From Mobula hypostoma (Eukaryota): a DNA stretch of 64,000 nt. Shown in pieces: positions 1 to 47,831 of this stretch. Under the pieces are notes generated by a model. That model searched no databases. It was not told the origin of the DNA and worked only from the letters and a program-made list of their open reading frames with translations. The first letter of the stretch is position 1. Every line of letters begins with the position of its first letter. The position numbers and the translations under genes are program-made. The DNA is taken from positions 111,912,001-111,976,000 of the forward strand of contig NC_086097.1 in assembly GCF_963921235.1 (NCBI RefSeq), written 5' to 3'.

Positions 1-9
1 TTATCACTA

Positions 10-1197
10 GACATCAATGCCACTGTTGTGACCCTCAGCAGATTGCAGATCTGCCTTAAATATACATTAAGTCTTGGCCTCCACAGCTGCTATGGCAACA
101 GATTCCACAACTCTCTGCCTAAAGAAATTCCTTCTCCTCTCCATTCTAAAAGGATGCCCCCCTATTCTGAGACTGTGTCCTCTGGTCTTAGATATTTCCA
201 TCATAGATAATATCCTCTCTACATCCGCTCTATCAAGGCCTTTCACCATTTGATGGGTTCAAATTAAGTCACCCCTCATTCTTCTGAATTCTAGTGAATA
301 TGGGCCCAGGGGTATCAAACACTCTTTGTATGTGCGACGGGGTCCTGAATTATCCCTATGAACTGTGCTTTTGAAAAGAAAGAGAGAGAGGTGCCCAACA
401 CAAACATCTTGTTAAAAAGAGAGAGAAAGAAAGAGAGAGAGAGGCGAAGACTGCTCACAGCATGTTTAGACTTTCTACAAGGACGCTACTTGCTTGGAAA
501 TTCTTACAGAGAGGGCAGGGAGGAGCTGTTTGAGAGACAGCTGGTATTCAGCACAGGGAGATGAATAGAATGTCAGATGATAGACCTGGAGACACATGGT
601 TTTGGATACTGGATGAGCTTTGTTGTGCCCACAGAAAAGGTGGATTTTGGAGGATCAATCAGGCGGATTGATCAGCGGCTCTCGCGGTGTGAACAGTGGG
701 GAGTTATTTGTTGTATCCAACCCTCGCCTGGGTTGATAATTCCACCACAGAAGAACGGTCCCCTTTTTTGTGGTCACAGTTGGTGACTTCTAAAGGATTT
801 TGGAGGACAATGGGAAGATTGACGGTGTCAGCTCACCTGAAGACTCAAATCTCTCCCTCTCTCCAACACTACTCAACTCAATACCACGAACTGAACTGAA
901 CTTTACTCATCGTCGTAAGACTATCTACTTACCCCTAGACTTGAAGAAGCCTGATTTTCATATATTTCCACACTTACTGATATAGTTACTTATATATAAT
1001 CATTGCTAACCTGTTTGATTTATCTGCATTTATATTTAACTACTGCGTAGTTACTAATAAATTCCTTTAGTTAATAGCAATACTGACCTCCAAAATGTTT
1101 TCCATTTGTGCTGGATCTTTAACCCGTCATGGGATACGTGACAGTATGACAAGCTGTCTAATCCAGGAATAATTTTCATGAACCTCATTTGAACCAT
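10..1197 (-). mobile_element. Old CR1 LINE 3' fragment, split by the solo LTR at 333-1143
   Basis: ORF 67-249(-) reads KGLDRADVER...KTRGHSLRI, the CR1 ORF2 C-terminus; CR1 similarity resumes at 1144-1197. Confidence 0.8.
333..1143 (+). mobile_element. Solo LTR (811 bp)
   Basis: TG...CA ends (TGCGACG...CGTGACA), 5-bp TSD GTATG at 328-332 and 1144-1148, AATAAA near 1056; interrupts a CR1 fragment cleanly. Confidence 0.85.
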
Positions 1198-2249
1198 GCC
1201 TCCCTCATCTGCCTCACACACCAACCTGTCTGTTTTCCTTATCTGAGGAGCCTTTCTATTTAGCTGTGGCCTGTATGCAGGTAGGAGGAAGACAGCTGAG
1301 TGATCTGAGTGTGGTGCAGGTATGGAATAGTAGACATTCCTTATCGTAATATGGCACTGGTTGAATAAGTTGGGACCCTGGTGCTGCAGGTTAAACGCTG
1401 ATGATAATTGGGCAGAGATCTCTTTGAACAAACTTAATTGAAGGTCCTGACTATGATTTGAAATGTGTTGGAATGGGGTGTTTCTTGTTTGGTGATGGCA
1501 ACATTCAGTATCTTGAGTGCCTGATTAACTTTAACTTTTGGCAGTATGTAAACTGCTGCCGGGATCATGGAGGAGAACTCTCCAGGTAAGTAGAATGGTT
1601 GGCACTTAATCATCTGATGTTCCAGATCAGGGGAAGAAGACTGCTGTGTCTGAGCACTATGAAGAGTTTATCATGAAACGGAGACATCACCTTTTGTCTT
1701 CTCTGCATCAGCAGTTCAGTCTATCCTGTGTATTGAGAAGTCATCAAGTCTTACCAACGTATCCGGCGTGTCCAGAGTGAGCTATGTCTCCACGAAACAA
1801 AGAACATAGCAATTACTCATTTCCCTTCAATTCAGCAATCATGCCTTTAGGTCCTCAGTCTTGTCCCCCAGTCACTGTACATTTGGTAACAAGATGCTGA
1901 GTAGAGGAACTTTCATTTCTTGATATTTCAGTCTGGCTTGGAGTCCTCCTCTCCTCCCTCTCTTCTGTCTATGCAATAGGTTTAATAGAATCAATTAAAA
2001 ACTACACACAACGACTGACAAATAACTAATGTGCAAAAGAAGACAAACTGTGCAAGTACAAAAGACAAATATTAGTCATAGTAAATAATACTGAAAACAC
2101 GAGCTATAAAGTCCTTGAAAGTGAGTCCAAAGTTTGTGGAATCAGTTCAGTGTTGAAGTGAGTGGAAAAATCCAATCGCAGCCTCTGTAAATTCAAAATG
2201 AACGGTAGTCTCACTTCTTCGGAAGGGTCTGTCTCTTGCAATATTAAAT

Positions 2250-2414
2250 GTGTTCTGTGAACGGGCAATCACTGACCTGTTCCACCGTTTCCGCTGTCCC
2301 CTTGCATCGGTGGGCGGGGGTAAACGTAGTACCGCCACGGACTGTGGTTAAAACTGGAGCGAAAGGGAGGAGGAATCAACAGTTTTATCCGGACTCTCCT
2401 GATCTCTCTGGAAA
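2250..2414 (+). promoter_or_regulatory. Probable DPYS proximal promoter / 5' UTR
   Basis: Non-repetitive, locally CpG-enriched sequence directly upstream of the ATG, with a GC box GGGCGG at 2312-2317. The TSS cannot be placed. Confidence 0.35.
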
Positions 2415-2678
2415 ATGGAACCAACGCTGAACGCCCACAACCGCATCCTAATTCGAGGAGGGAAAGTGGTGAATGAGGACTGCTCGGAGTTTGCCGACGT
2501 CTACATTGAGGATGGATTCATCCAGGGTGTGGGGCTCGATTTACCGCTGCCTGCAGGGGCGAGAGTCATCGACGCATCCGGCAAATTTGTCCTGCCAGGG
2601 GGCATCGACACACACACTCACATGCAGTTCCCTTTTATGGGTTTCGAAGCTGTCGATGATTTTTATCATGGAACTAAG
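2415..2678 (+). CDS. DPYS: Dihydropyrimidinase coding exon 1 (88 codons)
   Basis: ATG at 2415; translation [20 protein letters not shown]...[16 protein letters not shown]...DDFYHGTK with the amidohydrolase DxHxH motif; GT donor at 2679 (AAG|GTATAA), phase 0. Confidence 0.96.
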
Positions 2679-2969
2679 GTATAAACCAGAAAGTTTTATT
2701 GTGCTTTTATCTTTTACGGCTTATCCTTCTGGGAAAATTAAAGTTAGAAAGTCGTGCTAAGGAAAAATCGTTTCTATAGCTTTTCACTTTAAAACTTTTG
2801 CGAGAGATAACCTCCAAAACGAATTTGCTGTACCATGGGTTACTGTACTGTTTGGTTTGTGGAAATGTATTTGCATGGTCCCCGAGGTAGGAGATGCGAT
2901 TTCTAGCGAATTCATTATGTAGATAAAAGTTGGTTTATACCAAAAAAGTGTATTGGGTGGCGGGGTGGA

Positions 2970-3247
2970 GTTATTAACTTCAAACTTTCTGCATCATCAC
3001 TCAAAGCGTTGAACTGCATGTGCATGTAATGAGAGCTGTATAACTCATCTCCTTCTACCTTAGGCCACGAACGTATCAATCACCCCAGCCGTGGACACTC
3101 TCCGGAGGTCCAAGATCCGTATACTCCATGACCGCTGGACTAAGTGTGTCAATGTAGGAGGGGACTATGTTGAAAAATAAATGTGCTAGGTTTTCTAAAA
3201 TTGACTCCGTTTACCTTAGGCCACGAACTTATCAATCACCCCTCATA
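2970..3247 (-). mobile_element. Mariner-like non-autonomous fragment with an internally duplicated terminal segment
   Basis: Minus strand begins TA-TGAGGGGTGATTGATAAGTTCGTGGCCTAAGGTA in a TA-rich site; the same ~30-mer recurs at about 3057-3086 and 3213-3242. Family call is from resemblance to mariner termini. Confidence 0.55.
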
Positions 3248-3294
3248 TATACATGTATATACATATATGTGTGTGTGTGTGTGTGTGCATATAT

Positions 3295-3819
3295 CTTTTT
3301 TTTCTAGTTTGAGCATCTTGATCTTGGGCAGGTGCATTCAGTTCACTGGAGTGTTCTCTTATTAATCCCTCTATTGCTCCTTTACCATCCCATCTCTCCT
3401 CTTAGTTTTCTCATCTGCAACATCATCTGATGAATTCTTTGTTTTCCTATCTCCATTGACTCGTTTCTTTTTTGTCTTCCGTTCATCCAGCTGGGCTCTC
3501 GTCTTTGTATCTACTTTTACAAGGAACTTTTTGTCTCCCAGTAACCCTAATGCAGGCAGAGTAGATCCTTGTACTCACAAAAGCCATGTTCTTGCAACCT
3601 TCCTCAAGCTCCTTGAACTCTCTTCCAGCTTAAAACCAAGCCATATTTTGCGAGTAACTGCCTGATTAACATATCAGAAGCTTTCTCAGATAGATTACCT
3701 ACAAAAACTCTTGTAGCCAGACCACTGCTTTCACCACTTTCATGCTTCCACTGAGCAGCATGATGCTTTCTTGGTCCAATTAGCTTTCCAACCAGAGGCA
3801 CAGAGGTTGGCACTAATGC
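3295..3819 (-). pseudogene. RBM25: Processed (intronless) fragment of RNA-binding protein RBM25, RRM region
   Basis: Translation ALVPTSVPLVGK...VFVGNLSEKASDMLIRQLLAKYGLVLSWKRVQGA*GRLQEHGFCEYKD...GDKKFLVKVDTKTRAQLDE...IEGLIREHSSELNAP matches the vertebrate RBM25 N-terminus as I recall it; premature stop at 3604-3606 and indels; no introns. Confidence 0.88.
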
Positions 3820-4670
3820 CTGTTTGTCCTCTGATGGGCAATGATTCATGGTGTTTGGCATGGAGACAGTTGTGGCATCATCCAGTACCTTTCTTAATTC
3901 ACTTTCAAATAGCATCATTGCAAGGAATGTGGCATGAAAATTGTGGATGGATCTCCAATTAAGTTGTAGTTGTCTCAGCCAATCATGTCCCAACAATGCT
4001 GCTCCTTTTGTGTTTACCACATACAAGCTCAATGTGTCTTGTTGGTTGTTGTATTTCACTGTTACGAATGTTATTCCCACTTTTTCTCTTCTCTGTTTAG
4101 TCCATTTATCTTTGTCTGCCCAGCGTGCTCTTTGTATGTGACCTACTTTCTACAAGTTTCACCATTAAATGTGTATTTGTTTGGTGCATATAAGCCCTGC
4201 CACAATGGTAACATAATTTGTTTGCCCAGGCTGGTTTCTAAGTTTGATGCTGTAATTTTGTTCACACTCACTTTCATTCTGACTGCAACTCAATTGTGTG
4301 TCTGCAGTTTCCATTGAAACAGCGATTTCGACTCTCTTTTAAATGTAAGTTGTGCTTCAGCTAGGAACCATTTTTAAATGCTGAATTTTAAGCTTCCATA
4401 TACTTCTCAGTGTATCGTTAAGACCACTGTCTTAATAATGCTCAGACAATCTCTTCAATTCAGCCACATATGCTGAAATGGACTCCCCTTCTTTATGATT
4501 CTGCTCTTGAAACCTAAAGTGTCCTGCAATCAGCAATGGCTTCAGGTCTAAATGTTCCTGCATCACTTTGACAATATCAGCAAAGCTCATTTCTGCTGGT
4601 TTGGCTGGAGCAGTTAAACTTTGAAGCAAATTGCATGCCTTTAAATCTAATGGACTCAACAAAATTGGCA

Positions 4671-4896
4671 AACAACAGGAATTCTGCAGATGCTGGAAAT
4701 TCAAGCAACACACATAAAAGTTGCTGGTGAACGCAGCAGGCCAGGCAGCATCTCTAGGAAGAGGTGCAGTCGACGTTTCAGGCCGAGACCCTTCGTCAGG
4801 ACTAGAAGGGTCTCGGCCTGAAACGTCGACTGCACCTCTTCCTAGAGATGCTGCCTGGCCTGCTGCGTTCACCAGCAACTTTTATGTGTGTTGCTT
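4671..4896. mobile_element. Fold-back Penelope-derived mini-element inserted in Gypsy gag
   Basis: Perfect 92-bp inverted arms (4703-4794 / 4805-4896) with a 10-nt spacer; TSD CAACAAAATTGGCA at 4657-4670 and 4897-4910. Confidence 0.85.
4768..4803 (-). ncRNA. Minimal type I hammerhead ribozyme motif
   Basis: Minus strand AGUC-CUGACGA-A-GGGU(CUCG)GCCU-GAAA-CGUC-GACU: stem I AGUC/GACU, conserved core, palindromic ACGU in place of stem III. Confidence 0.7.
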
Positions 4897-6495
4897 CAAC
4901 AAAATTGGCACTTGTTTGTCATTGGTTATTTAATTCAAGATATTGTTCAGTTAGTTCAGTATACATCTCTTTTATGTAATCAAATATGTCAATCTTTCTG
5001 ATGTAGCCAGCCATTTCTGTTTTTGTTTGAATGATTATTATCACCCAGTTCTCACTTTTTATAAACCCATGAATTTTTCCATTTACTGACTTAAAATAAA
5101 AACTTGATTGTGTCTTCCCTTCTGGAAAACTTGCTGCTTTGTTTAAAAACTTGAACATTTCAGCACATTTTTACGTTTTTATAAATTTCGACCATCTCTC
5201 ACTGTTTTATTTTAGACTGAACATCTTGTCGTGCTTTAACAGGTCAGTAGCTGTCTCGGTTTCTTTTTGAAAACACCTCATCGCCAATGTTATGTTTTGT
5301 ATCTTCAGAACATTAAACTAATTCAGATGAAGACACAGGGGTCCAAAATGTTGGTTTAACATTGAGTTTACTTTAAGCAAGATGTGCATGTACCACATTG
5401 TAGTGTGATGATGTATGCAATTCATGTGCTTTTACATATAACATGTAATTATTTAACTGAACAAAAATGCTTAAACAAAATATATAGGATTATTCAAATG
5501 TTCTTGAAATGTTAAATACACAATTTTTTCATGATCTTGTAGAGAATAGGAAACCATTTCACCCCTAGGCTGATTCACAGTGCAATCCTATTCTCTCACT
5601 AGTTTTCCTTGTAATCATTTCTCACCACATTACCGTGAAGTGTTTGATTATGCTACACACCTAAAAAAAGGGGTAATTTGTAATGGCCATTTAACCTTCA
5701 GAGTCACAAGAAGAACATGCAAACAGAGCCACGGAGGCCCATTTCCAAGTGAAAACATTGCCCTAACCTCATTGTAACTGTTGACTTTTGTCTTTGTACA
5801 ATCATTAATCTTACATATACAGCATAGCCTCACTATGCTCCATTTTCCCCCTGCTTTTGCCTGAAGTATCTGCTTGTTCTGAGTTGTATCCCATTGGAAG
5901 AATTGTTTTTGTTACCCTAGCTTTTCATTATTCTAAATAATTTTATCTATTCTAATAAGTTCCATATTTTTAAAATCGATCTTGGAAATTTTCCCATATA
6001 GTGCTGATTTTAATGCTGAGTAAACTGAAGGAAGCTTGGATCTCATTGTTCGGCATGCAAGCCGATGCATTTTGGAAGGTCAAACCAGAGAATGACTTAT
6101 GAATGGTAGGGCACTGGGGCTAGTGAAATGGTATAGAGGAAGAGAAGAGTTCATTGGAAGTTTGGAAGTGGTGTCACAGGTAGACAGGGTAGTGGGAAAG
6201 GCATTTACCATGCTGAATGGTAACGGTTAGCAGAATGGTAACCCAGGATAGGGGAACCTAGAACTAAGGGAGATAAATTTAAGGTCTCAGAGGGAAATGA
6301 TTTAAAAAGAACCTGAGGGCATTTTTTCCCCCACAAAGGATAGTGAACAGGTGGAATGAGCCATCAGAGGAAGTAGTTGAGGCTGGTATAGTAGTATCAT
6401 TTATGAAGCACATGGAGGGGAGAGGCCTGATGGGATAAAGGGCAAATGCAGGAAATTGAGATTAGTTGGGTGGGCAGCATAGTCAGCATGGATTT

Positions 6496-9400
6496 AGAAA
6501 CATAGAAACATAGAAACATAGAAAATAGGTGCAGGAGTAGGCCATTCGGCCCTTCGAGCCTGCACCACCATTTATTATGATCATGGCTGATCATCCAACT
6601 CAGAACCCCGCCCCAGCCTTCCCTCTATACCCCCTGACCCCTGTAGCCACAAGGGCCATATCTAACTCCCTCTTAAACATAGCCAATGAACTGGCCTCAA
6701 CAGTTTGCTGTGGCAGAGAATTCCACAGATTCACCACTCTCTGTGTGAAGAAGTTTTTCCTAATCTCGGTCCTAAAAGGCTTCCCCTCTATCCTCAAACT
6801 GTGACCCTCGTTCTGGACTTCCCCAACATCGGGAACAATCTTCCTGCATCTAGCCTGTCCAATCCCTTTAGGATCTTATACGTTTCAATCAGATCCCCCC
6901 TCAATCTTCTAAATTCCAACGAGTACAAGCCCAGTTCATCCAGTCTTTCTTCATATGAAAGTCCTGCCATCCCAGGAATCAATCTGGTGAACCTTCTTTG
7001 TACTCCCTCTATGGCAAATATGTCTTTCCTCAGATTAGGGGACCAAAACTGCACACAATACTCCAGGTGTGTTCTCACCAAGGCCTTGTACAACTGCAGT
7101 AGTACCTCCCTGCTCCTGTACTCGAATCCTCTCGCTATAAATGCCAGCATACCATTCGCCTTTTTCACCGCCTGCTGTACCTGCATGCCCACTTTCAATG
7201 ACTGGTGTATAATGACACCCAGGTCTCGTTGCACCTCCCCTTTTCCTAATCGGCCACCATTCAGATAATAATCTGTTTTCCTATTTTTGCCACCAAAGTG
7301 GATAACTTCACATTTATCCACATTAAATTGCATCTGCCATGAGTTTGCCCACTCACCCAACCTATCCAAGTCACCCTGCATCCTCTTAGCGTCCTCCTCA
7401 CTGCTAACACTGCCGCCCAGCTTCGTGTCATCCGCAAACTTGGAGATGCTGCATTTAATTCCCTCATCCAAGTCATTAATATATATTGTAAACAACTGGG
7501 GTCCCAGTACTGAGCCTTGCGGTACCCCACTAGTCACCGCCTGCCATTCTGAAAAGGTCCCGTTTATTCCCACTCTTTGCTTCCTGTCTGCTAACCAATT
7601 CTCCACCCACACCAATACCTTACCCCCAATACCATGTGCTTTAAGTTTGCACACTAATCTCCTGTGTGGGACCTTGTCAAAAGCCTTTTGAAAATCCAAA
7701 TATACCACATCCACTGGTTCTCCCCTATCCACTCTACTAGTTACATCCTCAAAAAATTCTATGAGGTTCGTCAGACATGATTTTCCTTTCACAAATCCAC
7801 GCTGACTTTGTCCGATGAATTCATCGCTTTCCAAATGTGCTGTTATCACATCTTTGATAACTGACTCCAGCAGTTTCCCCACCACCGACGTTAGGCTAAC
7901 CGGTCTATAATTCCCCGGTTTCTCTCTCCCTCCTTTTTTAAAAAGTGGGGTTACATTAGCCACCCTCCAATCCTCAGGAACTAGTCCAGAATCTAACGAG
8001 TTTTGAAAAATTATCACTAATGCATCCACTATTTCTTGGGCTACTTCCTTAAGCACTCTAGGATGCAGACCATCTGGCCCTGGGGATTTATCTGCCTTCA
8101 ATCCCTTCAATTTACCTAACACCACTTCCCTACTAACATGTATTTCACTCAGTTCCTCCATCTCACTGGACCCTCTGTCCCTTACTATTTCTGGAAGATT
8201 ATTTATGTCCTCCTTAGTGAAGACAGAACCAAAGTAATTATTCAATTGGTCTGCCATGTCCTTGCTCCCCATAATCAATTCACCTGTTTCCGTCTGCAGG
8301 GGACCTACATTTGTCTTTACCAGTCTTTTCCTTTTTACATATCTATAAATGCTTTTACAGTCCGTTTTTATGTTCTCTGCCAGTTTTCTCTCATAATCTT
8401 TTTTCCCCTTCCTAATTAAGCCCTTTGTCCTCCTCTGCTGAACTCTGAATTTCTCTCAGTCCTCAGGTGAGCCACTTTCTCTGGCTAATTTGTATGCTTC
8501 TTCTTTGGAATTGATACTATCCCTAATTTCTCTTGTCAGCCACGGGTGCACTACCTTCCTTGATTTATTCTTTTGCCAAACTGGGATGAACAATTGTTGT
8601 AGTTCATCTATGCAACCTTTAAATGCTTGCCATTGCATATCCACCGTCAATCCTTTAAGTGTCATTTGCCAGTCTATCTTAGCTAATTCACGTCTCATAC
8701 CTTCAAAATTACCCCTCTTTAAGTTCAGAACCTTTGTTTCTGAATTAACTGTGTCACTCTCCATATTAATGAAGAATTCCACCATATTATGGTCACTCTT
8801 ACCCAAGGGGCCTCTCACGACAAGATCGCTAATTAACCCTTCCTCATTGCTCAAAACCCAGTCCAGAATAGCCTGCTCTCTAGTTGGTTCCTCGACATGT
8901 TGGTTCAAAAAACCATCCCGCATACATTCCAAGAAATCCTCTTCCTCAGCACCTTTACCAATTTGGTTCACCCAGTCTACATGTAGATTGAAGTCACCCA
9001 TTATAACTGCTGTTCCTTTATTGCACGCATTTCTAATTTCCTGTTTAATACCATCTCCGACCTCACTACTACTGTTAGGTGGCCTGTACACAACTCCCAC
9101 CAGCGTCTTCTGCCCCTTAGTGTTACGCAGCTCTACCCATATCGATTCCACATCTTCCCGGCTTATGTCCTTCCTTTCTATTGCGTTAATCTCCTCTTTA
9201 ACCAGGAACGCCACCCCACCTCCCCTTCCTTCATGTCTATCCCTCCTGAATATTGAATATCCCTGAACGTTGAGCTCCCATCCCTGGTCACCCTGGAGCC
9301 ATGTCTCTGTGATCCCAACTATATCATAATCATTAATAACAATCTGCACTTTCAATTCATCCACCTTATTACGGATGCTCCTTGCATTGATACATAAAGC

Positions 9401-9831
9401 CTTCAGGCGCTCTTTTACAACTCTCTTAGCCCTTGTACAATTATGTTGAAAAGTGGCCCTTTTTCATGCTTGCCCTGGATTTGTCGGCCGGCCACTTTTA
9501 CTTTTCTCCTTTGTACTTTTTGCTTCTACCCTCACTTTACACCCCTCTGTCTCTCTGCACTAGTTCCCATCCCTCTGTTGTGAACTAACCTCCTCACGCC
9601 TAGCCTCTTTAATTTGATTCCCACCCCCCAACCATTCTAGTTTAAAGTCACCTCAGTAGCCCCCGCTAATCTCCCCGCCAGGATATTGGTCCCCCTAGGA
9701 TTCAAGTGTAACCCGTCCTTTTTGTACAGGTCACGCCTGCGCCAAAAGAGGTCCCAATGATCCAAAAACTTGAATCCCTGCCCCCTGCTCCAATCCCTCA
9801 GCCACGCATTTATCCTCCACCTCATCGCATT
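6496..9831 (-). mobile_element. Young CR1 LINE copy 1 (5'-truncated in ORF1; ORF2 with one nonsense codon and a late frameshift)
   Basis: APE endonuclease ORF 8456-9364, RT ORF 6794-8278 (PQGSVLGP, FADD), ORF1 tail 9637-9825, (TAGAAACA)n tail at 6496-6525; sits inside the 3' UTR of an older CR1 (about 6060-6495 plus 9832-9880). Confidence 0.96.
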
Positions 9832-21560: not shown

Positions 21561-24500
21561 TGTGATAGGGGACTCGATAGTAAGGGGGTCAGATAGGTGA
21601 TCCTGTGGACGCAGTCCAGAGACCCGGATGGTAGTTTGCCTCCCTGGTGCCAGGCTCCGGGATATTTCTGATCTTGTTCAAGATATCCTGAAGTGGGAGG
21701 GTGAGGAGCCAGAGGTCGTGGTACATATAGGTACCAATGACATAGGTAGGAAAAGGGAAGAGGTCCTGAAAGGAGAATATAGGGAGCTAGGAAGGGAGTT
21801 GAGAAAAAGGACCGCAAAGGTAGTAATCTCGGGATTACTGCCTGTGCCACGCAACAGTGAGAGTAGGAATGCGATGAGGTGGAGGATAAATGCGTGTCTG
21901 AGGGATTGGAGCAGGGGGCAGGGATTCAAGTTTTTGGATCATTGGGACCTCTTTTGGCGCAGGCGTGACCTGTACAAAAAGGACGGGTTACACTTGAATC
22001 CTAGGGGGACCAATATCCTGGCAGGGAGATTAGCGAGGGCTTCTGAGGTGACTTTAAACTAGAATGGTTGGGGGGTGGGAATCAAATTAAAGAGGCTAGG
22101 TGAGAGGAGGTTAGTTCACAACAGGGGGATGGGAACCAGTGCAGAGAGACAGAGGGGTGTAAAGTGAGGGTAGAAGCAAAAAATAGTAAGGAGGAAAGTA
22201 AAAGTGGCAGGCCGACAAATCCAGGGCAAGCATCAAAAAGGGCCACTTTTCAACATAATTGTATAAGGGCTATGAGAGTTGTAAACGAGCGCCTGAAGGC
22301 TTTGTGTGTCAATGCAAGGAGCATTTGTAACAAGATGGATGAATTGAAAGTGCAGATTGTTATTAATGATTATGATATAGTTGGGATCACAGAGACATGG
22401 CTCCAGGGTGACCAAGGATGGGAACTCAACGTTCAGGGATATTCAATATTCAGGAGGGATAGACATGAAAGAAAAGGAGGTGGGGTGGCGTTGCTGGTTA
22501 AAGATGAGATTAACGCAAAAGAAAGGAAGGACATAAGCCGGGAAGATGTGGAATCGATATGGGTAGAGCTGCGTAACACTAAGGGGCAGAAAACGCTGGT
22601 GGGAGTTGTGTACAGGCCACCTAACAGTAGTAGTGAGGTCGGAGATGGTATTAAACAGGAAATTAGAAATGTGTGCAATAAAGGAACAGCAGTTATAATG
22701 GGTGACTTCAATCTACATGTAGATTGGGTGAACCAAATTGGTAAAGGTGCTGAGGAAGAGGATTTCTTGGAATGTATGCGGGATGGTTTTTGAACCAACA
22801 TGTCGAGGAACCAACTAGAAAGCAGGCTATTCTAGACTGGGTTTTGAGCAATGAGGAAGGGTTAATTAGCAATCTTGTCGTGAGAGGCCCCTTGGGTAAG
22901 AGTGACCATAATATGGTGGAATTCTTCATTAAGATGGAGAGTGACATAGTTAATTCAGAAACAAAGGTTCTGAACTTAAAGAGGGGTAACTTTGAAGGTA
23001 TGAGACATGAATTAGCTAAGATAGACTGGCAAATGACACTTAAAGGATTGACAGTGGATATGCAATGGCAAGCATTTAAGGATTGCATGGATGAACTACA
23101 ACAATTGTTCATCCCAGTTTGGCAAAAGAATAAATCAAGGAAGGTAGTGCACCCGTGGCTGACAAGAGAAATCAGGGATAGTATCAATTCCAAAGAAGTA
23201 GCATACAAATTAGCCAGAGAAAGTGGCTCACCTGAGGACTGGGAGAAATTCAGAGTTCAGCAGAGGAGGGCAAAGGGCTTAATTAGGAAGGGGAAAAATG
23301 ATTATGAGAGAAAACTGGTGGGGAACATAAAAACGGACTGTAAAAGCTTTTATAGATATGTAAAAAGGAAAAGACTGGTAAAGACAAATGTAGGTCCCCT
23401 ACAGACAGAAACAGGTGAATTGATTATGAGGAGCAAGGACATGGCAGACCAATTGAATAATTACTTTGGTTCTGTCTTCACTAAGGAGGACATAAATAAT
23501 CTTCCAGAAATAGTAAGGGACAGAGGGTCCAGTGAGATGGAGGAACTGAGGGAAATACATGTTAGTAGGGAAGTGGTGTTGGGTAAATTGAAGGGATTGA
23601 AGGCAGATAAATCCCCAGGGCCAGATGGTCTGCATCCCAGAGTGCTTAAGGAAGTAGCCCAAGGAATAGTAGATGCATTAGTGATAATTTTTCAAAACTC
23701 GTTAGATTCTGGACTGGTTCCTGAGGATTGGAGGGTGGCTAATGTACCCCACTTTTTAAAAAAGGAGGGAGAGAGAAACCGGGGAATTATAGACCGGTTA
23801 GCCTAACGTCGGTGGTGGGGAAACTGCTGGAGTCAGTTATCAAAGATGTGATAACAGCACATTTGGAAAGCGATGAATTCATCGGACAAAGTCAGCGTGG
23901 ATTTGTGAAAGGAAAATCATGTCTGACGAACCTCAGAATTTTTTGAGGATGTAACTAGTAGAGTGGATAGGGGAGAACCAGTGGATGTGGTATATTTGGA
24001 TTTTCAAAAGGCTTTTGACAAGGTCCCACACAGGAGATTAGTGTGCAAACTTAAAGCACACGGTATTGGGGGTAAGGTATTGATGTGGATAGAGAATTGG
24101 TTAGCAGACAGGAAGCAAAGAGTGGGAATAAACGGGACCTTTTCAGAATGGCAGGCACTGACTAGTGGGGTACCGCAAGGCTCAGTGCTAGGACCCCAGT
24201 TGTTTACAATATATATTACTGACTTGGATGAGGGAATTAAATGCAGCATTTCCAAGTTTGCGGATGACACGAAGCTGGGCGGCAGTGTTAGCTGTGAGGA
24301 GGATGCTAAGAGGATGCATGGTGACTTGGATAGGTTGGGTGAGTGGGCAAATTCATGGCAGATGCAATTTAATGTGGATAAATGTGAAGTTATCCACTTT
24401 GGTGGCAAAAACAGGAAAACAGATTATTATCTGAATGGTGGCCGATTAGGAAAAGGGGAGGTGCAACGAGACCTGGGTGTCATTATACACCAGTCATTGA

Positions 24501-25197
24501 AAGTGGGCATGCAGGTACAGCAGGCGGTGAAAAAGGCGAATGCTATGCTGGCATTTATAGCGAGAGGATTTGAGTACAGGAGCAGTGAGGTACTACTACA
24601 GTTGTACAAGGCCTTGGTGAGACCACACCTGAAGTATTGTGTGCAGTTTTGGTCCCCTTACCTGAGGAAAGACATCCTTGCCATAGAGGGAGTACAAAGA
24701 AGGTTCACCAGATTAATACCTGGGATGGCAGGACTTTCATATGAAGAAAGACTGGATGAACTGGGCTTGTACTCGCTGGAATTTAGAAGATTGAGGGGGG
24801 ATCTGATTGAAACGTATAATATCCTAAAGGGATTGGACAGGCTAGATGCAGGAAGATTGTTCCCAATGTTGGGGAAGTCCAGAACGAGGGGTCACAGTTT
24901 GAGGATAAAGGGGAAGCCTTTTAGGACTGAGATTAGGAAAAACTTCTTCACACAGAGAGTGGTGAATCTGTGGAATTCTCTGCCACAGGAAACAGTTGAG
25001 GCCCGTTTATTGGCTATATTTAAGAGGGAGTTAGATATGGCCCTTGTGGCTACGGGGGTCAGGGGGTATGGAGGGAAGGCTGGTGCAGGGTTCTGAGTTG
25101 GATGATCAGCCATGATCATAATAAATGGCGGTGCAGGCTCGAAAGGCCGAATGGCCTACTCCTGCACCTATTTTCTATGTTTCTATGTTTCTATGTA
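21561..25197 (+). mobile_element. Young CR1 LINE copy 3 (partial ORF1 esterase-like domain; frameshifted ORF2)
   Basis: ORF1 with VIGDS / HIGTNDIG / DGLHLN (SGNH-type), then endonuclease and RT split by frameshifts at about 22790, 23750 and 23935; (TTTCTATG)n tail. Confidence 0.96.
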
Positions 25198-32667: not shown

Positions 32668-35600
32668 TATGGGCTTTAAGTGAAAAGTGGACTTGGCCAA
32701 CCCTGAAGCTTCATCCCAGGAGTATCCAGTCCTTTTGTCATTTGCTTTAGGTTTTTAATCAAAACTTTACCATTTGATTTAAATAAGTACTAAGAAATAA
32801 ACAAAAACCTATCAATGTAAGTGAAATAGGTCAAGCAGATATCTCTATCACAGGTTTGTTGATTGAAATGAATGGGAGGTAGCAGCCATCCCTGATGTAG
32901 AGGAGAAGGTGTGATACAAAGAGTATCTAGACTTCAGTTTAGTAAATCATTTCTCAGCTAGTGGGTTTTGTGGTGAGTTCAGTGGGCGAGTGAACAGTTA
33001 ATTGTGCTTCTAACCTTCAGTCTGTCTGGACTTCTGTCATTCACCATTCCGCGCACACCTCAACCACTTCAGTTATTAGTCACACTAACCAAGCTGATAT
33101 TTTCAATATCAAATGGTGCTAAAACATGTATAGTCTCTGTTTCATATTCCAGCTGGGTGGTGGCTTCTTCCCCCAGGCTATGAAGCTTCTGAACAACCTG
33201 CTACCACCCACTACTCATCATTTATGATAGCACCAGTAGCTGTAATACTGATGTATATTTTTTATTATTAATTTTTTATTGCAACACCAACAAATTACAT
33301 TCAATACAACCAATTGGCAATTACATTTTGACTTTAACCCAGCCACCCCCAACCTTCATCACCATCCCCCCTCCACCCCTCTCTCCCCACCATCCATCTC
33401 CCCTCCACCAACCAACTGAATAGTAGTACATACACAGACAAAGCATTCCTATTTTAACAAAAGATCTTTTAAGTAAGATATCAAATTTGTCCACATTAAG
33501 ATTGTGTTTGGTCGTGCATCATTTACTCTTGCTGACGAAAGTTCCAGGTAAGAAATGTCCAAAAAGCTCTGAAGCCAGTGAGTATTTGAAATATCATGGG
33601 GAGGTTTCCAACGCTGGACTACAATCTTCTTAGCTGCAGTCAGGCCTGCCAGCCAGATTTTGCATGATTTTCCGTAAGGGAAAAGTGGGAGTCATCATTT
33701 AGAAGCTGTACAGTGGGGTCCATTGGTAATTGTACCCCTGTTAGTTCTGTAAGAGTACTGATAACCTACCCCCACAAACCAAAAACCCCTGGACATTCCC
33801 ATACAACATGTATAAAAGAGCCCACTGTTCTGTGGGAGCAAAATGAGCAATAAGGGTCAAGAACCAGTCCCATTTGATGTCTAATTCTCGGTGTTAAATA
33901 TGGTCTATGACAAAATTTCAAGTGTGTATACCGATGATTTGGGTTTTTCCAATCACCAGCAGCATTATCCCAAATCACATCCCAGTCTAAGTCTTGTCCC
34001 AATTCAGATATGTCCCTATCCCAGGCTTTCATTCCTGATGTGGGCATATATTTCTGGGAGTTTAATTTATCATAGATATATGACACTATCTGTCCAGGAG
34101 CACTCTGTATCCAACTTAAAATGGGATGGTCCTTTAAATCTGACCCCCAGGGAATGCCGTAGGCTTTACAAGCTGATCTTACTCTAAAGTAGAAGAAACG
34201 AGAGTGTTTATTAATATTATATTGAGATATCAGTTCTTGAAAGCTAAGGATAATACTTGCCCCATTAATATCTTGAAGAGTAGTAATACCTTTATCCTCC
34301 CAAGTTCTGTTAGTGAATGGTTTCCCCCCAGGTAGAAAACGATTATTGTTCCATAATGGAGATGATTTTCACCATACGCTTTTAAATTTTAGGAATTTTT
34401 CTGCTGCTCTAATCATTTGTAGCATATGGGTTAAAATTGGACCGTAATACAAATCACATTTTTTAGTAGACATACCTACAAGGAGAAAGCCCTTCAACTT
34501 TATTGGTGCCATTAGCTCTTGTCCTATATTTTTCCAGGATGAAACATTATCCTCCTCCATCCAATAGCTAAGACTTTTTAATACAAATGCCCACTGATAC
34601 AATTTAAAATTTGGACATGCCAATCTCCCATCCGACTTTTTGAATTGTAGAGCTGACCATTTTACATTGGGTCGTTTACCATTCCAAACATAGCATCATA
34701 GTAAGGAGTCCAGTTTTTGCCAATATCCTGTTGGAGGTGCAAGTGGGATCATTGAGCTGATAAAATTAATGCGGGGGAAGATGCTCATTGATGCTGGCAG
34801 GTGTCTCCATCTATTAATATATTCTATTTTTTCAGAATTAAAGAGTAATTTGTTTTAGTCACAGATGATAGGGAAGTATTAACTTTAATACCCAAGTAGA
34901 GGACCTCATTTGTAACCCTAATCTGGGGAGGGAGAGACACCTTACTTTTATCTGCATTAATCAGCATCAGTGCTGATTTTGACAAATTAACTTTGTATCC
35001 TGAAAAAAGTCCAAATTGCTCCAGTGTTTTTAAAACATCGGGGAGAGTTTGTTGAACATTTGCCATATAAACTAGCGTGTCGTCCGTGTAGTGATATCGA
35101 ATGTGAAGTTGTACCTATTGTAATAGGGGAGATCTGAGGAGAGTTTCTAATTAAATGTGCAAATAGTTCAATAGATATAGTAAAAATTAAAATAACTCTG
35201 AGAAACCTCCTCCCACACATACCCGGGCTGAAGGATTAGCATACAGTGTTTGAATCATATTGATAAATTTATCGCTGAACTTAAATTCTTTTAGAACTCT
35301 CCAAAGATATGGCTATCCAAGGCAATCAAACGCTTTTTCAGCATCTAGAAATAGCAGGCCACAGGCAGGCGGGATTTTATGTGTTGCACTCAGTATGTGT
35401 AAGAGCCGGCGAATATTATCAGATGCGAGATACCCCCGATAAAGCCCGTTTGATCTGGGCTAATTATTTTCCCAAGTACTGTCTCAAGCCTACTGGCTAA
35501 GACTTTGGAAAATATCTTGAGGTCAGCATTTATCAAGGAGATTAGATGGTAATTGGCACACTCCAAGGGGTCCTTACCAGGCTCAGGTATAACTGTGATC

Positions 35601-36152
35601 AGGGCTGTGTTTAGATCTCTATGGAAAGCGCCATTTCCAAAAGCATAATTTAATGTTTCTAACCATACTGGTCCAAGAATATCCCAAAGTGCTAGGTAAA
35701 GTTCCACAAGTATGCCATCTATGCCTGGCATACGGCCCTTATTTGTAGCTTTGACTGCTTTAAGTAGCTCATCCAGTGTAATAGGAGAGTCTAGAGCTTT
35801 GGTGTCCTCTAATGACAATGTAGGGAGGTCTAATCCACTAAAAAAATCTGTGAAGTCATTCTCAGAAGGAACTGAACCACTTGTATACAGCTCTTTAAAG
35901 TAGTTCTTGAATATCTCATTTATTTGCTCTGTTGAAGATACTACTCCATGTTTAGCACATCTAATCGCTGGTATAGACCTTTTAGCTTCCTGTTGTTTGA
36001 GCATTAGAGCTAAAAGATGGCTCGGTCTGCTGCCTTCTGTGTAATACTTATGTTTGGTTATATGGATCATATATTCTGCCCTGCTTCTTAATAAATCATT
36101 TAATTCTGCTTGTTTTGTTTTGAGCTTGTTTCCTTTTGTTATGGTGTATATC

Positions 36153-39100
36153 TATTGGTGCAGGCGTGACCTGTACAAAAAGGACGGGTTACACTTGAAT
36201 CCTAGGGGGACCAATATCCTGGCAGGGAGATTAGCGGGGGCTACTGAGGTGACTTTAAACTAGAATGGTTGGGGGGTGGGAATCAAATTAAAGAGGCTAG
36301 GCGTGAGGAGGTTAGTTCACAACAGAGGGATGGGAACCAGTGCAGAGAGACAGAGGGGTGTAAAGTGAGCGTAGAAGCAAAAAGTACAAAGGAGAAAAGT
36401 AAAAGTGGCAGGCCGACAAATCCAGGGCAAGCATTAAAAAGGGCTAAGAGAGTTGTAAAAGAGTGCCTGAAGGCTTTATGTGTCAATGCAAGGAGCATTC
36501 GTAATAAGGTGAATGAATTGAAAGTGCAGATTGTTATTAATGATTATGATATAGTTGGGATCACAGAGACATGGCTCCAGGGTGACCAGGGATGGGAGCT
36601 CAACGTTCAGGGATATTCAATATTCAGGAGGGATAGACATGAAGGAAGGGGAGGTGGGGTGGCGTTGCTGGTTAAAAAAGAGATTAACGCAATAGAAAGG
36701 AAGGACATAAGCCGGGAAGATGTGGAATCGATATGGGTAGAGCTGCGTAACACTAAGGGGCAGAAGACGCTGGTGGGAGTTGTGTACAGGCCACCTAACA
36801 GTAGTAGTGAGGTTGGAGATGGTATTAAACAGGAAATTAGAAATGTGTGCAATAAAGGAACAGCAGTTATAATGGGTGACTTCAATCTACATGTAGACTG
36901 GGTGAACCAAATTGGTAAAGGTGCTGAGGAAGAGGATTTCTTGGAATGTATGCGGGATGGTTTTTTGAACCAACATGTCGAGGAACCGACTAGAGAGCAG
37001 GCTATTCTGGACTGGGTTTTGAGCAATGAGGAAGGGTTAATTAGCGATCTTGTCGTGAGAGGCCCCTTGGGTAAGAGTGACCATAATATGGTGGAATTCT
37101 TCATTAACATGGAGAGTGACACAGTTAATTCAGAAACAAAGGTTCTGAACTTAAAGAGGGGTAACTTTGAAGGTATGAGACGTGAATTAGCTAAGATAGA
37201 CTGGCAAATGACACTTAAAGGATTGACGGTGGATATGCAATGGCAAGCATTTAAAGGTTGCATGGATGAACTACAACAATTGTTCATCCCAGTTTGGCAA
37301 AAGAATAAATCAAGGAAGGTAGTGCACCCGTGGCTGACAAGAGAAATTAGGGATAGTAACAATTCCAAAGAAGTAGCATACAAATTATCCAGAGAAAGTG
37401 GCTCACCTGAGGACTGGGAGAAATTCAGAGTTCAGCAGAGGAGGACAAAGGGCTTAATTAGGAAGGGGAAAAAAGATTATGAGAGAAAACTGGCAGAGAA
37501 CATAAAAACGGACTGTAAAAGCTTTTATAGATATGTAAAAAGGAAAAGACTGATAAAGACAAATGTAGGTCCCCTGCAGACAGAAACAGGTGAATTGATT
37601 ATGGGGAGCAAGGACATGGCAGACCAATTGAATAATTACTTTGGTTCTGTCTTCACTAAGGAGGACATAAATAATCTTCCAGAAATAGTAAGGGACAGAG
37701 GGTCCAGTGAGATGGAGGAACTGAGTGAAATACGTGTTAGTAGGGAAGTGGTGTTAGGTAAATTGAAGGGATTGAAGGCAGATAAATCCCCAGGGCCAGA
37801 TGGTCTGCATCCCAGAGTGCTTAAGGAAGTAGCCCAAGAAATAGTGGATGCATTAGTGATAATTTTTCAAAACTCGTTAGATTCTGGACTAGTTCCTGAG
37901 GATTGGAGGGTGGCTAATGTAACCCCACTTTTTAAAAAAGGAGGGAGAGAGAAACCCGGGAATTATAGGCCGGTTAGCCTAACGTCGGTGGTGGGGAAAC
38001 TGCTGGAGTCAGTTATCAAGGATGTGATAACAGCACATTTGGAAAGCGGTGAAATGATCGGACAAAGTCAGCATGGATTTGTGAAAGGAAAATCATGTCT
38101 GACGAATCTCATAGAATTTTTTGAGGATGTAACTAGTAGAGTGGATAGGGGAGAACCAGTGGATGTGGTATATTTGGATTTTCAAAAGGCTTTTGACAAG
38201 GTCCCACACAGGAGATTAGTGTGCAAACTTAAAGCACACGGTATTGGGGGTAAGGTATTGGTGTGGGTGGAGAATTGGTTAGCAGACAGGAAGCAAAGAG
38301 TGGGAATAAACGGGACCTTTTCAGAATGGCAGGCGGTGACTAGTGGGGTACCGCAAGGCTCAGTGCTGGGACCCCAGTTGTTTACAATATATATTAATGA
38401 CTTGGATGAGGGAATTAAATGCAGCATCTCCAAGTTTGCGGATGACACGAAGCTGGGTGGCAGTGTTAGCAGTGAGGAGGATGCTAAGAGGATGCAGAGT
38501 GACTTGGATAGGTTGGGTGAGTGGGCAAACTCATGGCAGATGCAATTTAATGTGGATAAATGTGAAGTTATCCACTTTGGTGGCAAAAATAGGAAAACAG
38601 ATTATTATCTGAATGGTGGCCGAATAGGAAAAGGGGAGGTGCAACGAGACCTGGGTGTCATTATACACCAGTCATTGAAAGTGGGCATGCAGGTACAGCA
38701 GGCGGTGAAAAAGGCGAACGGTATGCTGGCATTTATAGCGAGAGGATTCGAGTACAGGAGCAGGGAGGTACTACTGCAGTTGTACAAGGCCTTGGTGAGA
38801 CCACACCTGGAGTATTGTGTGCAGTTTTGGTCCCCTAATCGGAGGAAAGACATCTTTGCCATAGAGGGAGTACAAAGAAGGTTCACCAGATTGATTCCTG
38901 GGATGGCAGGTCTTTCATATGAAGAAAGACTGGATGAACTGGGCTTGTACTCGTTGGAATTTAGAAGATTGAGGGGGGATCTGATTGAAACGTATAAGAT
39001 CCTAAGGGGATTGGACAGGCTGGATGCGGGAAGATTGTTTCCGATGTTGGGGAGGTCCAGAACGAGGGGTCACAGTTTGAGGATAGAGGGGAAGCCTTTT

Positions 39101-39369
39101 AGGACCGAGATTAGGAAAAACTTCTTCACACAGAGAGTGGTGAATCTGTGGAATTCTCTGCCACAGCAAACAGTTGAGGCCAGTTCATTGGCTATGTTTA
39201 AGAGGGAGTTAGATATGGCCCTTGTGGCTACAGGGGTCAGGGGGTATGGAGGGAAGGCTGGGGCGGGGTTCTGAGTTGGATGATCAGCCATGATCATAAT
39301 AAATGGCGGTGCAGGCTCAAAGGTCCGAATGGCCTACTCCTGCACCTATTTTCTATGTTTCTATTTTTC
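36153..39369 (+). mobile_element. Young CR1 LINE copy 4, nested in L1 ORF2
   Basis: Starts in the ORF1 tail (DGLHLNPRG), full ORF2, 3' UTR and TTTCTAT tail; short TSD TATATC at 36147-36152 and 39370-39375. Confidence 0.96.
36269..39274 (+). CDS. CR1 ORF2 protein (APE endonuclease + reverse transcriptase), uninterrupted frame
   Basis: 1001-codon open frame with NARS, ITETW, MGDFN, SDHN, QHGF, PQGSVLGP and FADD motifs. The listed start is a TTG, so the true initiation site is uncertain. Confidence 0.9.
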   Translation: MGGGNQIKEARREEVSSQQRDGNQCRETEGCKVSVEAKSTKEKSKSGRPTNPGQALKRAKRVVKECLKALCVNARSIRNKVNELKVQIVINDYDIVGITETWLQGDQGWELNVQGYSIFRRDRHEGRGGGVALLVKKEINAIERKDISREDVESIWVELRNTKGQKTLVGVVYRPPNSSSEVGDGIKQEIRNVCNKGTAVIMGDFNLHVDWVNQIGKGAEEEDFLECMRDGFLNQHVEEPTREQAILDWVLSNEEGLISDLVVRGPLGKSDHNMVEFFINMESDTVNSETKVLNLKRGNFEGMRRELAKIDWQMTLKGLTVDMQWQAFKGCMDELQQLFIPVWQKNKSRKVVHPWLTREIRDSNNSKEVAYKLSRESGSPEDWEKFRVQQRRTKGLIRKGKKDYERKLAENIKTDCKSFYRYVKRKRLIKTNVGPLQTETGELIMGSKDMADQLNNYFGSVFTKEDINNLPEIVRDRGSSEMEELSEIRVSREVVLGKLKGLKADKSPGPDGLHPRVLKEVAQEIVDALVIIFQNSLDSGLVPEDWRVANVTPLFKKGGREKPGNYRPVSLTSVVGKLLESVIKDVITAHLESGEMIGQSQHGFVKGKSCLTNLIEFFEDVTSRVDRGEPVDVVYLDFQKAFDKVPHRRLVCKLKAHGIGGKVLVWVENWLADRKQRVGINGTFSEWQAVTSGVPQGSVLGPQLFTIYINDLDEGIKCSISKFADDTKLGGSVSSEEDAKRMQSDLDRLGEWANSWQMQFNVDKCEVIHFGGKNRKTDYYLNGGRIGKGEVQRDLGVIIHQSLKVGMQVQQAVKKANGMLAFIARGFEYRSREVLLQLYKALVRPHLEYCVQFWSPNRRKDIFAIEGVQRRFTRLIPGMAGLSYEERLDELGLYSLEFRRLRGDLIETYKILRGLDRLDAGRLFPMLGRSRTRGHSLRIEGKPFRTEIRKNFFTQRVVNLWNSLPQQTVEASSLAMFKRELDMALVATGVRGYGGKAGAGF

Positions 39370-46280: not shown

Positions 46281-47609
46281 GTAAGAAATGGTAGACAGTC
46301 AATCCCATTTCTTCCTTGCACTGTTGATTTATGGTCTTCCTCACATTTTCAACACATCCCTCAGAGCACCATTGGAATGAAATGATCTGTATGGATGGCA
46401 TGCAAAACAAAATTTTTTACTGTACTGAAATACATGACAATAATTTACTCATTTATTAATATGCTGTGTTATGTACTGGAATGTTAATTCTCTGAGCCTT
46501 TTCTCTCTGGGGGAGCTGCACTGAAGATACAATCATAGATGGATTTGTAGCATTCATGAGCTTATATAATTCATCCAATACCAATTTACTGACCCCTCTG
46601 TTGTGGTGTGAGTATGTGATCACAATGAAACAAAATGGCAGAGCACAGAGACACAGTGACTTCTCTGAATACCAATAATGGTGCTAGTTTTAAATTCTTC
46701 AGTCATGTCTTGTCTTGAAGACTGTCTTTACTGAAGAAGAATGCACTGTCAATATAGTAATAAAGCAAGGGGCAGGGATTAGATTAATAAGATAAAAATG
46801 GATAAAGAAGTGGTACTTACAGGAAGTGGGTGCTGAAAGTTGAAAAGTCATGTGGACCAGATGGATGCATCCTAGATTACTGGCTGAAAGAAAAGCAAGA
46901 CTTGTGAAGATTCTGTCCAATCTTACACTCTTCAGACACACACTCAGCAGTTACAGGCTACTCAGCCTAACAACAAATAGAATTACATGTCTGGAGCTTT
47001 ACTTGCATTGCATTTTATTCAGCATATCTGATTGAAAACATTTATCCCCCGAAGTAAAATGTGACATAAACCATTTTGGGTCATTTCCTGTCCTTTGGAA
47101 CTCACCTTCAAGAAAATTCAGGATGATGTACACTCATTTGTCCTGGAATGAATTGAATTCCGATGATAATGTGGTCTCCACCCCACAGTAGGAAGTAATT
47201 CTTTTAAAGGTGAAATGTGGATATTTGAGAGGGATTACTTGGCATCGAACTGAGAACTAACACTGAATGAATGTTTTTTGAACAAAATCCAGCACAGTTG
47301 CAAACCTGTTACCTTTGTGATGTATGTATGTTTGGGATGTTTTGTGGACATTATGCAAAATGGTCAGAATGCCTCTTTCTCCCTTTTTGAATGTCTTTTG
47401 CTCTATTGTTAAAATAAGCCAATCAATACATGTGAAAATATTGCAGAATGTATGATCAAATAATGAAAAAAAAGAGTTAATGAGTATATGGTAAGTGAGT
47501 ATGTATAAATATGGACTAGAATAAAACTAAGGAAATTAACTGTCAAGATCCACACATCAAAGTTGCTGGTGAATGCAGCAGGCCAGGCAGCATCTCTAGG
47601 AAGAGTTAC

Positions 47610-47645
47610 AGTCAACGTTTCAGGTCGAGACCCTTCGTCAGGACT
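47610..47645 (-). ncRNA. Minimal hammerhead ribozyme motif (GUU site)
   Basis: AGUC-CUGACGA-A-GGGU(CUCG)ACCU-GAAA-CGUU-GACU on the minus strand. Confidence 0.62.
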
Positions 47646-47795
47646 AACTGAAGGAAGAGTTAGTAAGAGATTTGAAAGTGGGAGGGGGAGGGGGAGCCAA
47701 GGGCTCCATCCCTCCCCCTCCTGTCTTCTCCTATCATTTTGGATCTCCCCCTCCCCCTCCCACTTTCAAATCTCTTACTAACTCTTCCTTCAGTT

Positions 47796-47831
47796 AGTCC
47801 TGACGAAGGGTCTCGGCCTGAAATGTCGACT
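47796..47831 (+). ncRNA. Minimal hammerhead ribozyme motif on the DPYS sense strand
   Basis: AGUC-CUGACGA-A-GGGU(CUCG)GCCU-GAAA-UGUC-GACU; C-to-U change in the stem III palindrome. Confidence 0.6.

What the first reader, a model, noticed from the sequence alone, without database searches (positions are those of the whole stretch)
3295..5522. Spliced RBM25 mRNA fragment fused in frame to a Gypsy gag-protease: possible host-gene capture by an LTR retrotransposon
Seen: on the minus strand a 5' LTR, PBS, gag and protease run through a ~46-nt linker of unknown origin (3820-3865) into an intronless RBM25 RRM-coding segment in the same orientation and reading frame (ORF 3604-4080 spans the junction). 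The Gypsy sequence stops where RT should begin. Known: LTR elements can acquire cellular mRNA by template switching. Inference: this is either a Gypsy-RBM25 chimera or an independent retrocopy juxtaposed by deletion. No 3' LTR is visible and the RBM25 part has a stop and indels, so it is not functional now.
Basis: partly seen in the sequence, partly recalled or inferred. Interest (0 to 1): 0.7.

Follow-up and report, generated by a model that had tools for sequence, protein, structure and literature searches.

The report
Jumping-gene family carrying spliced RBM25
This is one old, broken copy of a retrovirus-like jumping gene that swapped its copying enzymes for a spliced piece of the host splicing-factor message RBM25 and then spread to hundreds of places in a cartilaginous-fish genome; the way of capture is known, the scale is unusual for a vertebrate.

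Summary
Observation confirmed, with two corrections. On the minus strand, in intron 1 of DPYS, an LTR (5522-5288), primer site, broken gag and the back half of a Gypsy protease run in frame into an intron-free RBM25 piece (3876-3294). The 'linker of unknown origin' is RBM25: it matches an alternatively included 16-codon segment of shark RBM25 isoforms. The true junction is 3876-3871, at two residues that both parents share. The protease's catalytic half is deleted in this copy. The junction is not single-copy: 17 of 32 listed contig pieces from four runs of three organisms cross it at 16-19% difference, and the RBM25 part lies 550-2,400 times deeper than single-copy flank. Both parts are about equally diverged, and the insertion predates the split from a relative about 7% away. 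So the chimera itself multiplied, most likely as a non-autonomous LTR element formed by template switching (Tan et al. 2016). This copy lacks its 3' end, so the return junction and 3' LTR are untested. No paper on this family was found in six searches.

The parts
5288..5522 (-). 5' LTR, about 235 nt, TG start somewhat decayed, ends CATAACA
   Evidence: depth step at the outer end and 1,700-2,100x single-copy depth in bin 5304-5424
5276..5286 (-). primer-binding-site-like TGGCGATGAGG (tRNA-Ser type: recalled, not tested)
   Evidence: position 1 nt behind the LTR
4896..5014 (-). gag N-terminus, broken
   Evidence: tblastn to P0139 residues 1-33, 52% identity, E 2e-5
4671..4895 (.). later insertion: palindromic high-copy repeat with a hammerhead-like core motif; 15-nt target duplication at 4656-4670 and 4896-4910
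   Evidence: second copy at 47543-47930; depth in millions
4081..4670 (-). rest of gag up to the zinc-knuckle region, with stops, frameshifts and small deletions
   Evidence: tblastn to P0139 residues 40-248, E 3e-27
3877..4080 (-). C-terminal part of the Gypsy protease up to the start of the RT region; catalytic N-terminal part deleted in this copy at 4080/4081
   Evidence: P0139 337-416 44%, P0138 51%, P0141 45%; loose end at 4080 in 319, 343 and 252 contigs of X1, X5, X11
3871..3876 (-). Gypsy/RBM25 junction: two codons (Ala-Thr) that fit both parents at protein level
   Evidence: P0138 reads VLDGAT-VVF, P0042 reads APAT-TVSM, window VLDDAT-TVSM
3820..3867 (-). the 'linker': 48-nt alternatively included RBM25 segment of elasmobranch isoforms
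   Evidence: ungapped match to P0041 (Heptranchias perlo isoform X2) and to P0042
3294..3819 (-). spliced RBM25 coding piece with the RRM; crosses three further intron positions (about 3649, 3591, 3454) without an intron; one stop, two frame breaks, one in-frame deletion; ends in Lys-coding A-rich run
3244..3293 (.). (CA)n/(TA)n microsatellite at the present 3' end
   Evidence: directly; piece X6-26 (3228-3635, 0 differences) confirms continuity in a second sample
2968..3243 (.). later DNA-transposon-like repeat (mariner-type label recalled) that lacks one terminal arm; marks the deletion that probably removed the element's 3' end
   Evidence: terminal repeat at 3205-3242 and 3049-3086 only; other copies continue at 2968 into an inverted arm (table 5)
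2415..2678 (+). host context: first coding exon of dihydropyrimidinase (DPYS); the element lies antisense in the following intron
   Evidence: best PDB match 2vr2_A, E 3.6e-31; GT donor at 2679

Best explanation
A 3'-truncated relic of a non-autonomous Gypsy-type LTR retrotransposon family. In the founder, reverse transcriptase switched from the element's RNA to a co-packaged, spliced RBM25 mRNA at a short shared sequence at the protease/RT border, so that RBM25 coding sequence replaced pol in sense and in frame. The hybrid kept LTRs, primer site, gag and protease, was copied in trans by intact relatives to hundreds or more sites, then died and decayed neutrally. This copy later took two repeat insertions, lost the front of its protease, and lost its 3' end. 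Shown: spliced RBM25 origin, shared in-register junction in many copies, similar divergence, old orthologous insertion. Inferred: template switch as the first event, the return junction and 3' LTR, mobilisation in trans.
For: Junction crossed by 17 of 32 listed contig pieces, 10 of them with 31 or more letters on both sides (X1 3, X5 4, X11 2, X6 1), all 16.0-18.6% different from the window, so paralogues; 3 of the 10 have no gap, so the frame is family-wide. RBM25 bins are 590-1,930x (X1), 550-1,930x (X5), 720-2,420x (X11) deeper than single-copy flank; the site 3834, 37 nt inside the RBM25 side, 420-600x. Gag-only paralogue pieces differ by 14.1 and 17.2%, an RBM25-only piece by 13.5%. RRM core: 9 of 51 residues changed where 78 of 88 vertebrate RBM25 hits differ by at most 2; neutral simulation gives about 9 at 9% base change, half the paralogue distance. 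Two-residue overlap at the junction. Same orientation, truncated at both ends, no tail beyond coding As. Matches the anatomy in Tan et al. 2016.
Against: This copy has no 3' LTR, no return junction and no target-site duplication; Tan et al. expect both LTRs. No whole paralogue could be read (no genome held; no relatives in viral or prokaryote collections). The shared sequence at the junction is shown only as two residues against non-ray proteins, not as bases. Summed contig depth is not a copy number by the tool's own warning, and the 80% floor and choice of longest pieces bias the divergence figures. No listed contig of the window's own copy spans the junction. Gypsy-side depth (about 4,000-5,000x) exceeds RBM25-side depth, so many relatives may carry pol or other cargo.
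Confidence: 0.8

Rival explanations
1. Same family, different birth: a LINE-made RBM25 processed copy inserted into a Gypsy element, a DNA-level microhomology deletion removed pol and the RBM25 5' part, and that defective element then amplified.
For: CR1/L2-like LINE ORFs are abundant in the window; short shared sequence at a junction is also made by end-joining; this copy shows other deletions (4080/4081).
Against: Needs two or three events where a template switch needs one; the RBM25 piece is internal coding sequence, and no tail or duplication is seen, although the 3' end is lost here.
Confidence: 0.12
2. The founder Gypsy sat in sense inside an RBM25 intron; read-through and splicing made a chimeric transcript (3' transduction, as for oncogene capture by retroviruses), later recombined with a helper genome to regain a 3' LTR.
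For: The junction lies only 9 nt upstream of an RBM25 segment boundary (3867); Tan et al. note switches near exon junctions and cite 3' transduction as a route.
Against: The junction is inside the upstream exon's last codons rather than at a splice acceptor (P0042 match starts at 3876).
Confidence: 0.05
3. One-locus accident: an independent RBM25 retrocopy brought next to a Gypsy stump by deletion at this site only.
For: Missing 3' LTR; several deletions in this copy.
Against: The same junction is in many paralogous contigs of three organisms and the RBM25 piece is high-copy.
Confidence: 0.02

Closest known systems
LTR-mediated retrocopies of metazoans (Tan et al. 2016, Genome Res, PMC5131818; parts 1-3 of 8 read)
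   Same: Partial, intron-free mRNA replacing internal ORFs of an LTR element; short shared sequence at the fusion point; sense orientation; re-copying as a non-autonomous element.
   Different: There: young copies with one or a few insertion sites, 3-10 cases per vertebrate genome, no cartilaginous fish among the six species named. Here: an old family of hundreds to about two thousand copies by depth; this copy lacks the 3' LTR.
Crocodilian ERVs with captured KIT-ligand and nectin3 mRNA (PMC4299795; 12 passages read)
   Same: Old germ-line retroelement lineage that multiplied with a captured host mRNA.
   Different: Those are retroviruses with nine and six copies and ORFs under purifying selection; this is a Gypsy element, pol is replaced, and the cargo in this copy decayed like neutral DNA.
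Maize Bs1 and human HERV-K/FAM8A1 (as cited in Tan et al.; originals not read)
   Same: LTR element carrying spliced host sequence.
   Different: Copy numbers not checked here; recalled as low.
Fish Gypsy polyproteins P0139 (Metynnis), P0141 (Labeo; named Gypsy integrase-like / retrovirus-related Pol)
   Same: Gag and protease sequence and order in one frame.
   Different: Only 39-52% identical; RT, RNase H and integrase are absent here.

Membership tests
LTR-mediated retrocopy (Tan et al. 2016) | intron-free partial mRNA inside an LTR element | tested here: met
   four to five intron positions crossed, inferred from read-through ORFs of other vertebrates, not from the ray's own gene
LTR-mediated retrocopy (Tan et al. 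2016) | mRNA replaces internal ORF instead of interrupting a continuous element | tested here: inconclusive
   Gypsy stops at the protease/RT border and no pol follows in the window, but the 3' end of this copy is lost
LTR-mediated retrocopy (Tan et al. 2016) | microsimilarity at the fusion point | tested here: inconclusive
   two shared residues against P0138 and P0042; parents' DNA not available
LTR-mediated retrocopy (Tan et al. 2016) | both LTRs present | tested here: not met
   no LTR-like sequence at 2680-3300 or elsewhere in the window; holds for this copy, so it is filed as a truncated relic that works like this class; not testable for the family
LTR-mediated retrocopy (Tan et al. 2016) | further copying as a non-autonomous element with the same junction | tested here: met
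Ty3/Gypsy LTR retrotransposon | gag and protease homologous to Gypsy polyproteins; LTR with TG...CA ends and primer site | tested here: met
Ty3/Gypsy LTR retrotransposon | RT-RNase H-integrase order and RT phylogeny | not testable with these tools
   domains absent from this copy; no intact relative from this genome in reach
LINE-made processed pseudogene | poly(A) tail and target-site duplication around the cDNA | tested here: not met
   A-run is Lys-coding RBM25 sequence; no flanking repeat at the ends (one search tested LTR flank against the 3' side); 3' end may be secondarily lost
LINE-made processed pseudogene | each copy has its own flank and 5' end | tested here: not met
   17 listed paralogous pieces share the Gypsy flank and junction

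The most novel reading that the evidence does not exclude
The in-frame cargo was selected by the element, not just carried: a Gag-protease-RBM25(RRM) polyprotein was made, and the open frame or the RRM (RNA binding, splicing or decay escape) gave this defective lineage an edge. Together with sister families reported by earlier scan notes (SUDS3, SH3KBP1), this Gypsy would be a serial in-frame gene-capture vehicle and the main source of 'retrocopies' in rays, which a 2026 preprint ascribes to non-LTR elements and selective retention.
Probability: 0.2. Interest if true: 0.75.

Novelty: new variant of a known kind. Interest (0 to 1): 0.5.

Why it matters
It is a germ-line vertebrate case in which a captured host mRNA piece multiplied as cargo of a defective LTR element on the scale of an ordinary repeat family. 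That changes how retrocopy counts in cartilaginous fishes should be read: the VGP preprint (10.64898/2026.06.26.734816, passages) counts 14,081 retrocopies there, links non-mammalian retrocopies to CR1/Tx1 LINEs and names SUDS3 among the top parents; RBM25 is not in its main text. If such copies descend from one capture each, they are not independent retroposition events. Hundreds of copies also give the power to test whether cargo was under selection while the element spread. The locus itself is dead.

Tried and rejected
No genome is held for this window, so paralogues were seen only through contigs. Protein search with the protease piece against longer proteins: 92 candidates, none significant. 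No chimeric protein among 40 hits or the 150 listed; hits that seemed to cross the junction were pure Gypsy or intron read-through (21 inspected). A 24-nt junction pattern in metagenome contigs gave 1 hit, L001, with no tblastn match to 8 Gypsy or RBM25 proteins: chance, rejected. Viral and prokaryote contigs: 1 and 59 pattern matches, none confirmed. ESM Atlas: no usable hit. PDB gave only generic RRMs. Rfam: 11 matches, all below gathering score, hairpin artefacts; no hammerhead family called. A bacterial promoter scan was irrelevant. No RNA holder listed; X6 is only guessed RNA, so nothing is said on expression. A paper search for the primer-site motif gave unrelated papers. Look-alike look-ups in earlier findings by place and by sequence were blank. 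No loose end at 3871 is among the listed ones, but 7,343 were not shown, so nothing is drawn from it. Rejected: linker as Gypsy splice donor or filler DNA (it is RBM25); chimeric transcript copied by a LINE (the LTR reaches its outer end).

Full report
Setting. No genome is held for this window. The best protein match is from a shark, and earlier scan notes call the genome a ray; I did not identify it further. The finding lies antisense in the intron behind the first coding exon of dihydropyrimidinase (2415-2678; best PDB match 2vr2_A, E 3.6e-31; GT donor at 2679).

Gypsy part. On the minus strand: an LTR-like segment 5522-5288 ending CATAACA and a primer-site-like TGGCGATGAGG at 5286-5276; contig depth falls from 3,714 to 28 across the outer end. 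Gag begins at 5014. Gag and protease pieces match fish Gypsy polyproteins P0139, P0138 and P0141 at 39-52%. Gag is broken by stops, frameshifts and a palindromic repeat with a 15-nt target duplication (4656-4670, 4896-4910). P0139 residues 249-336, which hold the DTG motif, have no counterpart: the protease front is deleted at 4080/4081. That loss belongs to this copy or its sub-lineage, since 319, 343 and 252 contigs of three runs leave the window at 4080 (table 7). Gypsy similarity ends at VLDDAT, where relatives go on into the RT region. No other piece of this element is in the 64 kb.

RBM25 part. The frame 3604-4149 runs from protease into RBM25 without a stop. The supposed linker is RBM25: Heptranchias perlo isoform X2 (P0041) aligns without a gap over 85 residues, 62 identical, from the linker on, and an unnamed member of the same cluster (P0042) reads APAT-TVSMLYTMNRCPTEGKQ, extending the match to 3876. 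The segment occurs in 3 of 293 fetched proteins, all in that cluster. The window reads VLDDAT-TVSM; Gypsy P0138 reads VLDGAT-VVF. So Ala-Thr at 3876-3871 fits both parents: up to 6 shared bases, inferred from proteins only. The piece continues to 3294 with one stop (3604-3606), two frame breaks (near 3565 and 3380-3383) and a five-residue deletion. Read-through ORFs of other vertebrates leave RBM25 before VLVPT, after RQLLA, after GKLQ and after NG; the window crosses all these points without an intron, so the template was spliced mRNA. These intron positions are inferred, not read from the ray gene.

The junction is a family trait. Contigs of four runs (organisms A, A, B, C) were laid on 2400-6000 at 80% likeness. 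Of 32 listed pieces (272,619 more not shown), 17 cross the junction and 10 do so with 31 or more letters on each side; all differ from the window by 16.0-18.6%, so they are other loci, and 3 of the 10 have no gap, so the frame is shared. Two pairs in A and B have the same ends and may be orthologues of each other. Summed depth over the RBM25 bins is 590-1,930 (X1), 550-1,930 (X5) and 720-2,420 (X11) times the single-copy flank; over the protease end about 4,100-5,200 times. The tool warns that summed depth is no copy number and that human-like contigs are dropped, so I read this as hundreds to about two thousand copies. One RBM25 gene cannot give it. No listed piece of the window's own copy spans the junction; own-copy pieces cover 2400-2994, 3228-3635 and 4995-6000.

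Age. Gag-only paralogue pieces differ by 14.1 and 17.2%, an RBM25-only piece by 13.5%, junction pieces by 16-19%; these figures are capped at 20% and lean high. In the RRM core the window has 9 of 51 residues changed, where 78 of 88 vertebrate RBM25 hits differ from the shark by at most 2; a neutral simulation on 49 residues gives 7.0, 9.0 and 10.7 changes at 7, 9 and 11% base change. So the cargo of this copy decayed as neutral DNA by about half the paralogue distance, as expected if both parts started together. Pieces spanning LTR and outer flank exist in B (5309-6000, 1.4%) and C (5133-5689, 8.6% plus gaps; flanks 6.0 and 7.6%), so this insertion predates the A/C split. Whether C's copy holds RBM25 was not shown.

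The missing 3' end. RBM25 ends in its own Lys-coding A-run, followed by a microsatellite and a DNA-transposon-like repeat (2968-3243). That repeat has its terminal sequence at 3205-3242 and internally at 3049-3086, but not at its left end, whereas other copies continue at 2968 into an inverted arm (table 5). A deletion here would remove the arm and what lay beyond, including a 3' LTR; this is inference. The LTR finds nothing at 2680-3300 (score 22, 103 of 200 shuffles as high).

Mechanism. Most likely (0.8) a template switch during reverse transcription put spliced RBM25 in place of pol, and the hybrid was copied in trans as a non-autonomous LTR element. Tan et al. 2016 (PMC5131818; parts 1-3 of 8 read, supplements not) describe this anatomy, a median of 6 shared bases at junctions, and re-copying at a few sites. 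Rivals: LINE insertion plus deletion in the founder (0.12), read-through transduction from an intronic element (0.05), one-locus accident (0.02). All but the last keep the amplified family. Because the two-LTR feature is not met in this copy, I file it as a truncated relic that works like that class.

Novelty. Searches for RBM25 with retrotransposon and shark, with pseudogenes and Gypsy, and with retrocopies gave 0 papers each; the listings of three broader searches showed no paper on it (20 listed of 35, 277 and 92). The library lacks most subscription papers, and Repbase and Dfam could not be searched. Crocodilian ERV captures have nine and six copies (PMC4299795, passages). The VGP retrocopy preprint (abstract, outline and 12 passages) does not name RBM25 in its main text; its supplements were not seen and may list it. 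Earlier notes of this scan, read, report at least nine other windows of the same genome with this chimera and sister families with SUDS3, SH3KBP1 and RNF213 cargo; they are unchecked AI notes, agree with my result, and make this window a repeat sighting, less complete than several others.

Verdict. Real, old, dead at this locus; one member of a large cargo-bearing Gypsy family. Known mechanism, unusual scale: new variant of a known kind, interest 0.5. The bold reading, that in-frame cargo was selected and that such families make most ray 'retrocopies', has probability 0.2; one in-frame junction alone arises by chance 1 time in 3.

Noticed in passing
window 4671-4895 and 47543-47930: Palindromic, very high-copy repeat with a CTGA-GA...GAAA hammerhead-like core (4799-4776, minus) and a 15-nt target duplication; may be Penelope-related. 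Rfam called no hammerhead. A 2026 preprint (10.64898/2026.07.22.740005, 3 passages) reports retrozymes in one chondrichthyan.
   Followed up: partly
proteins P0001, P0041, P0042; window 3820-3867: Elasmobranch RBM25 has an alternatively included 16-codon segment, with a further 4-codon variant, at an intron position of other vertebrates; found in 3 of 293 fetched proteins and 0 of 88 long hits, which held no shark or ray. The element captured the shorter form.
   Followed up: partly
window 2968-3243: DNA-transposon-like repeat missing one terminal arm; the same left edge appears to be shared by organism B (piece 2400-2998).
   Followed up: partly
window 36248-39274, 6794-9463, 21601-25096: Young CR1/L2-like LINE copies 95-98% alike, one with a 1,008-aa open frame; family label read by eye.
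   Followed up: no
window 33766-36151 and 39413-41946: Older L1/Tx1-like fragments on the minus strand (ORF1-like, endonuclease-like and RT-like pieces by eye), split by the young LINE at 36248-39274.
   Followed up: no
window 2415-2678: DPYS first coding exon; a contig of run X6 with depth 370 fits 2400-2679 exactly and goes on elsewhere, as a spliced transcript would.
   Followed up: partly
L001 (Ga0307378_10004281) 1-9034: Unrelated chance hit; looks like a phage structural-gene region by eye.
   Followed up: no
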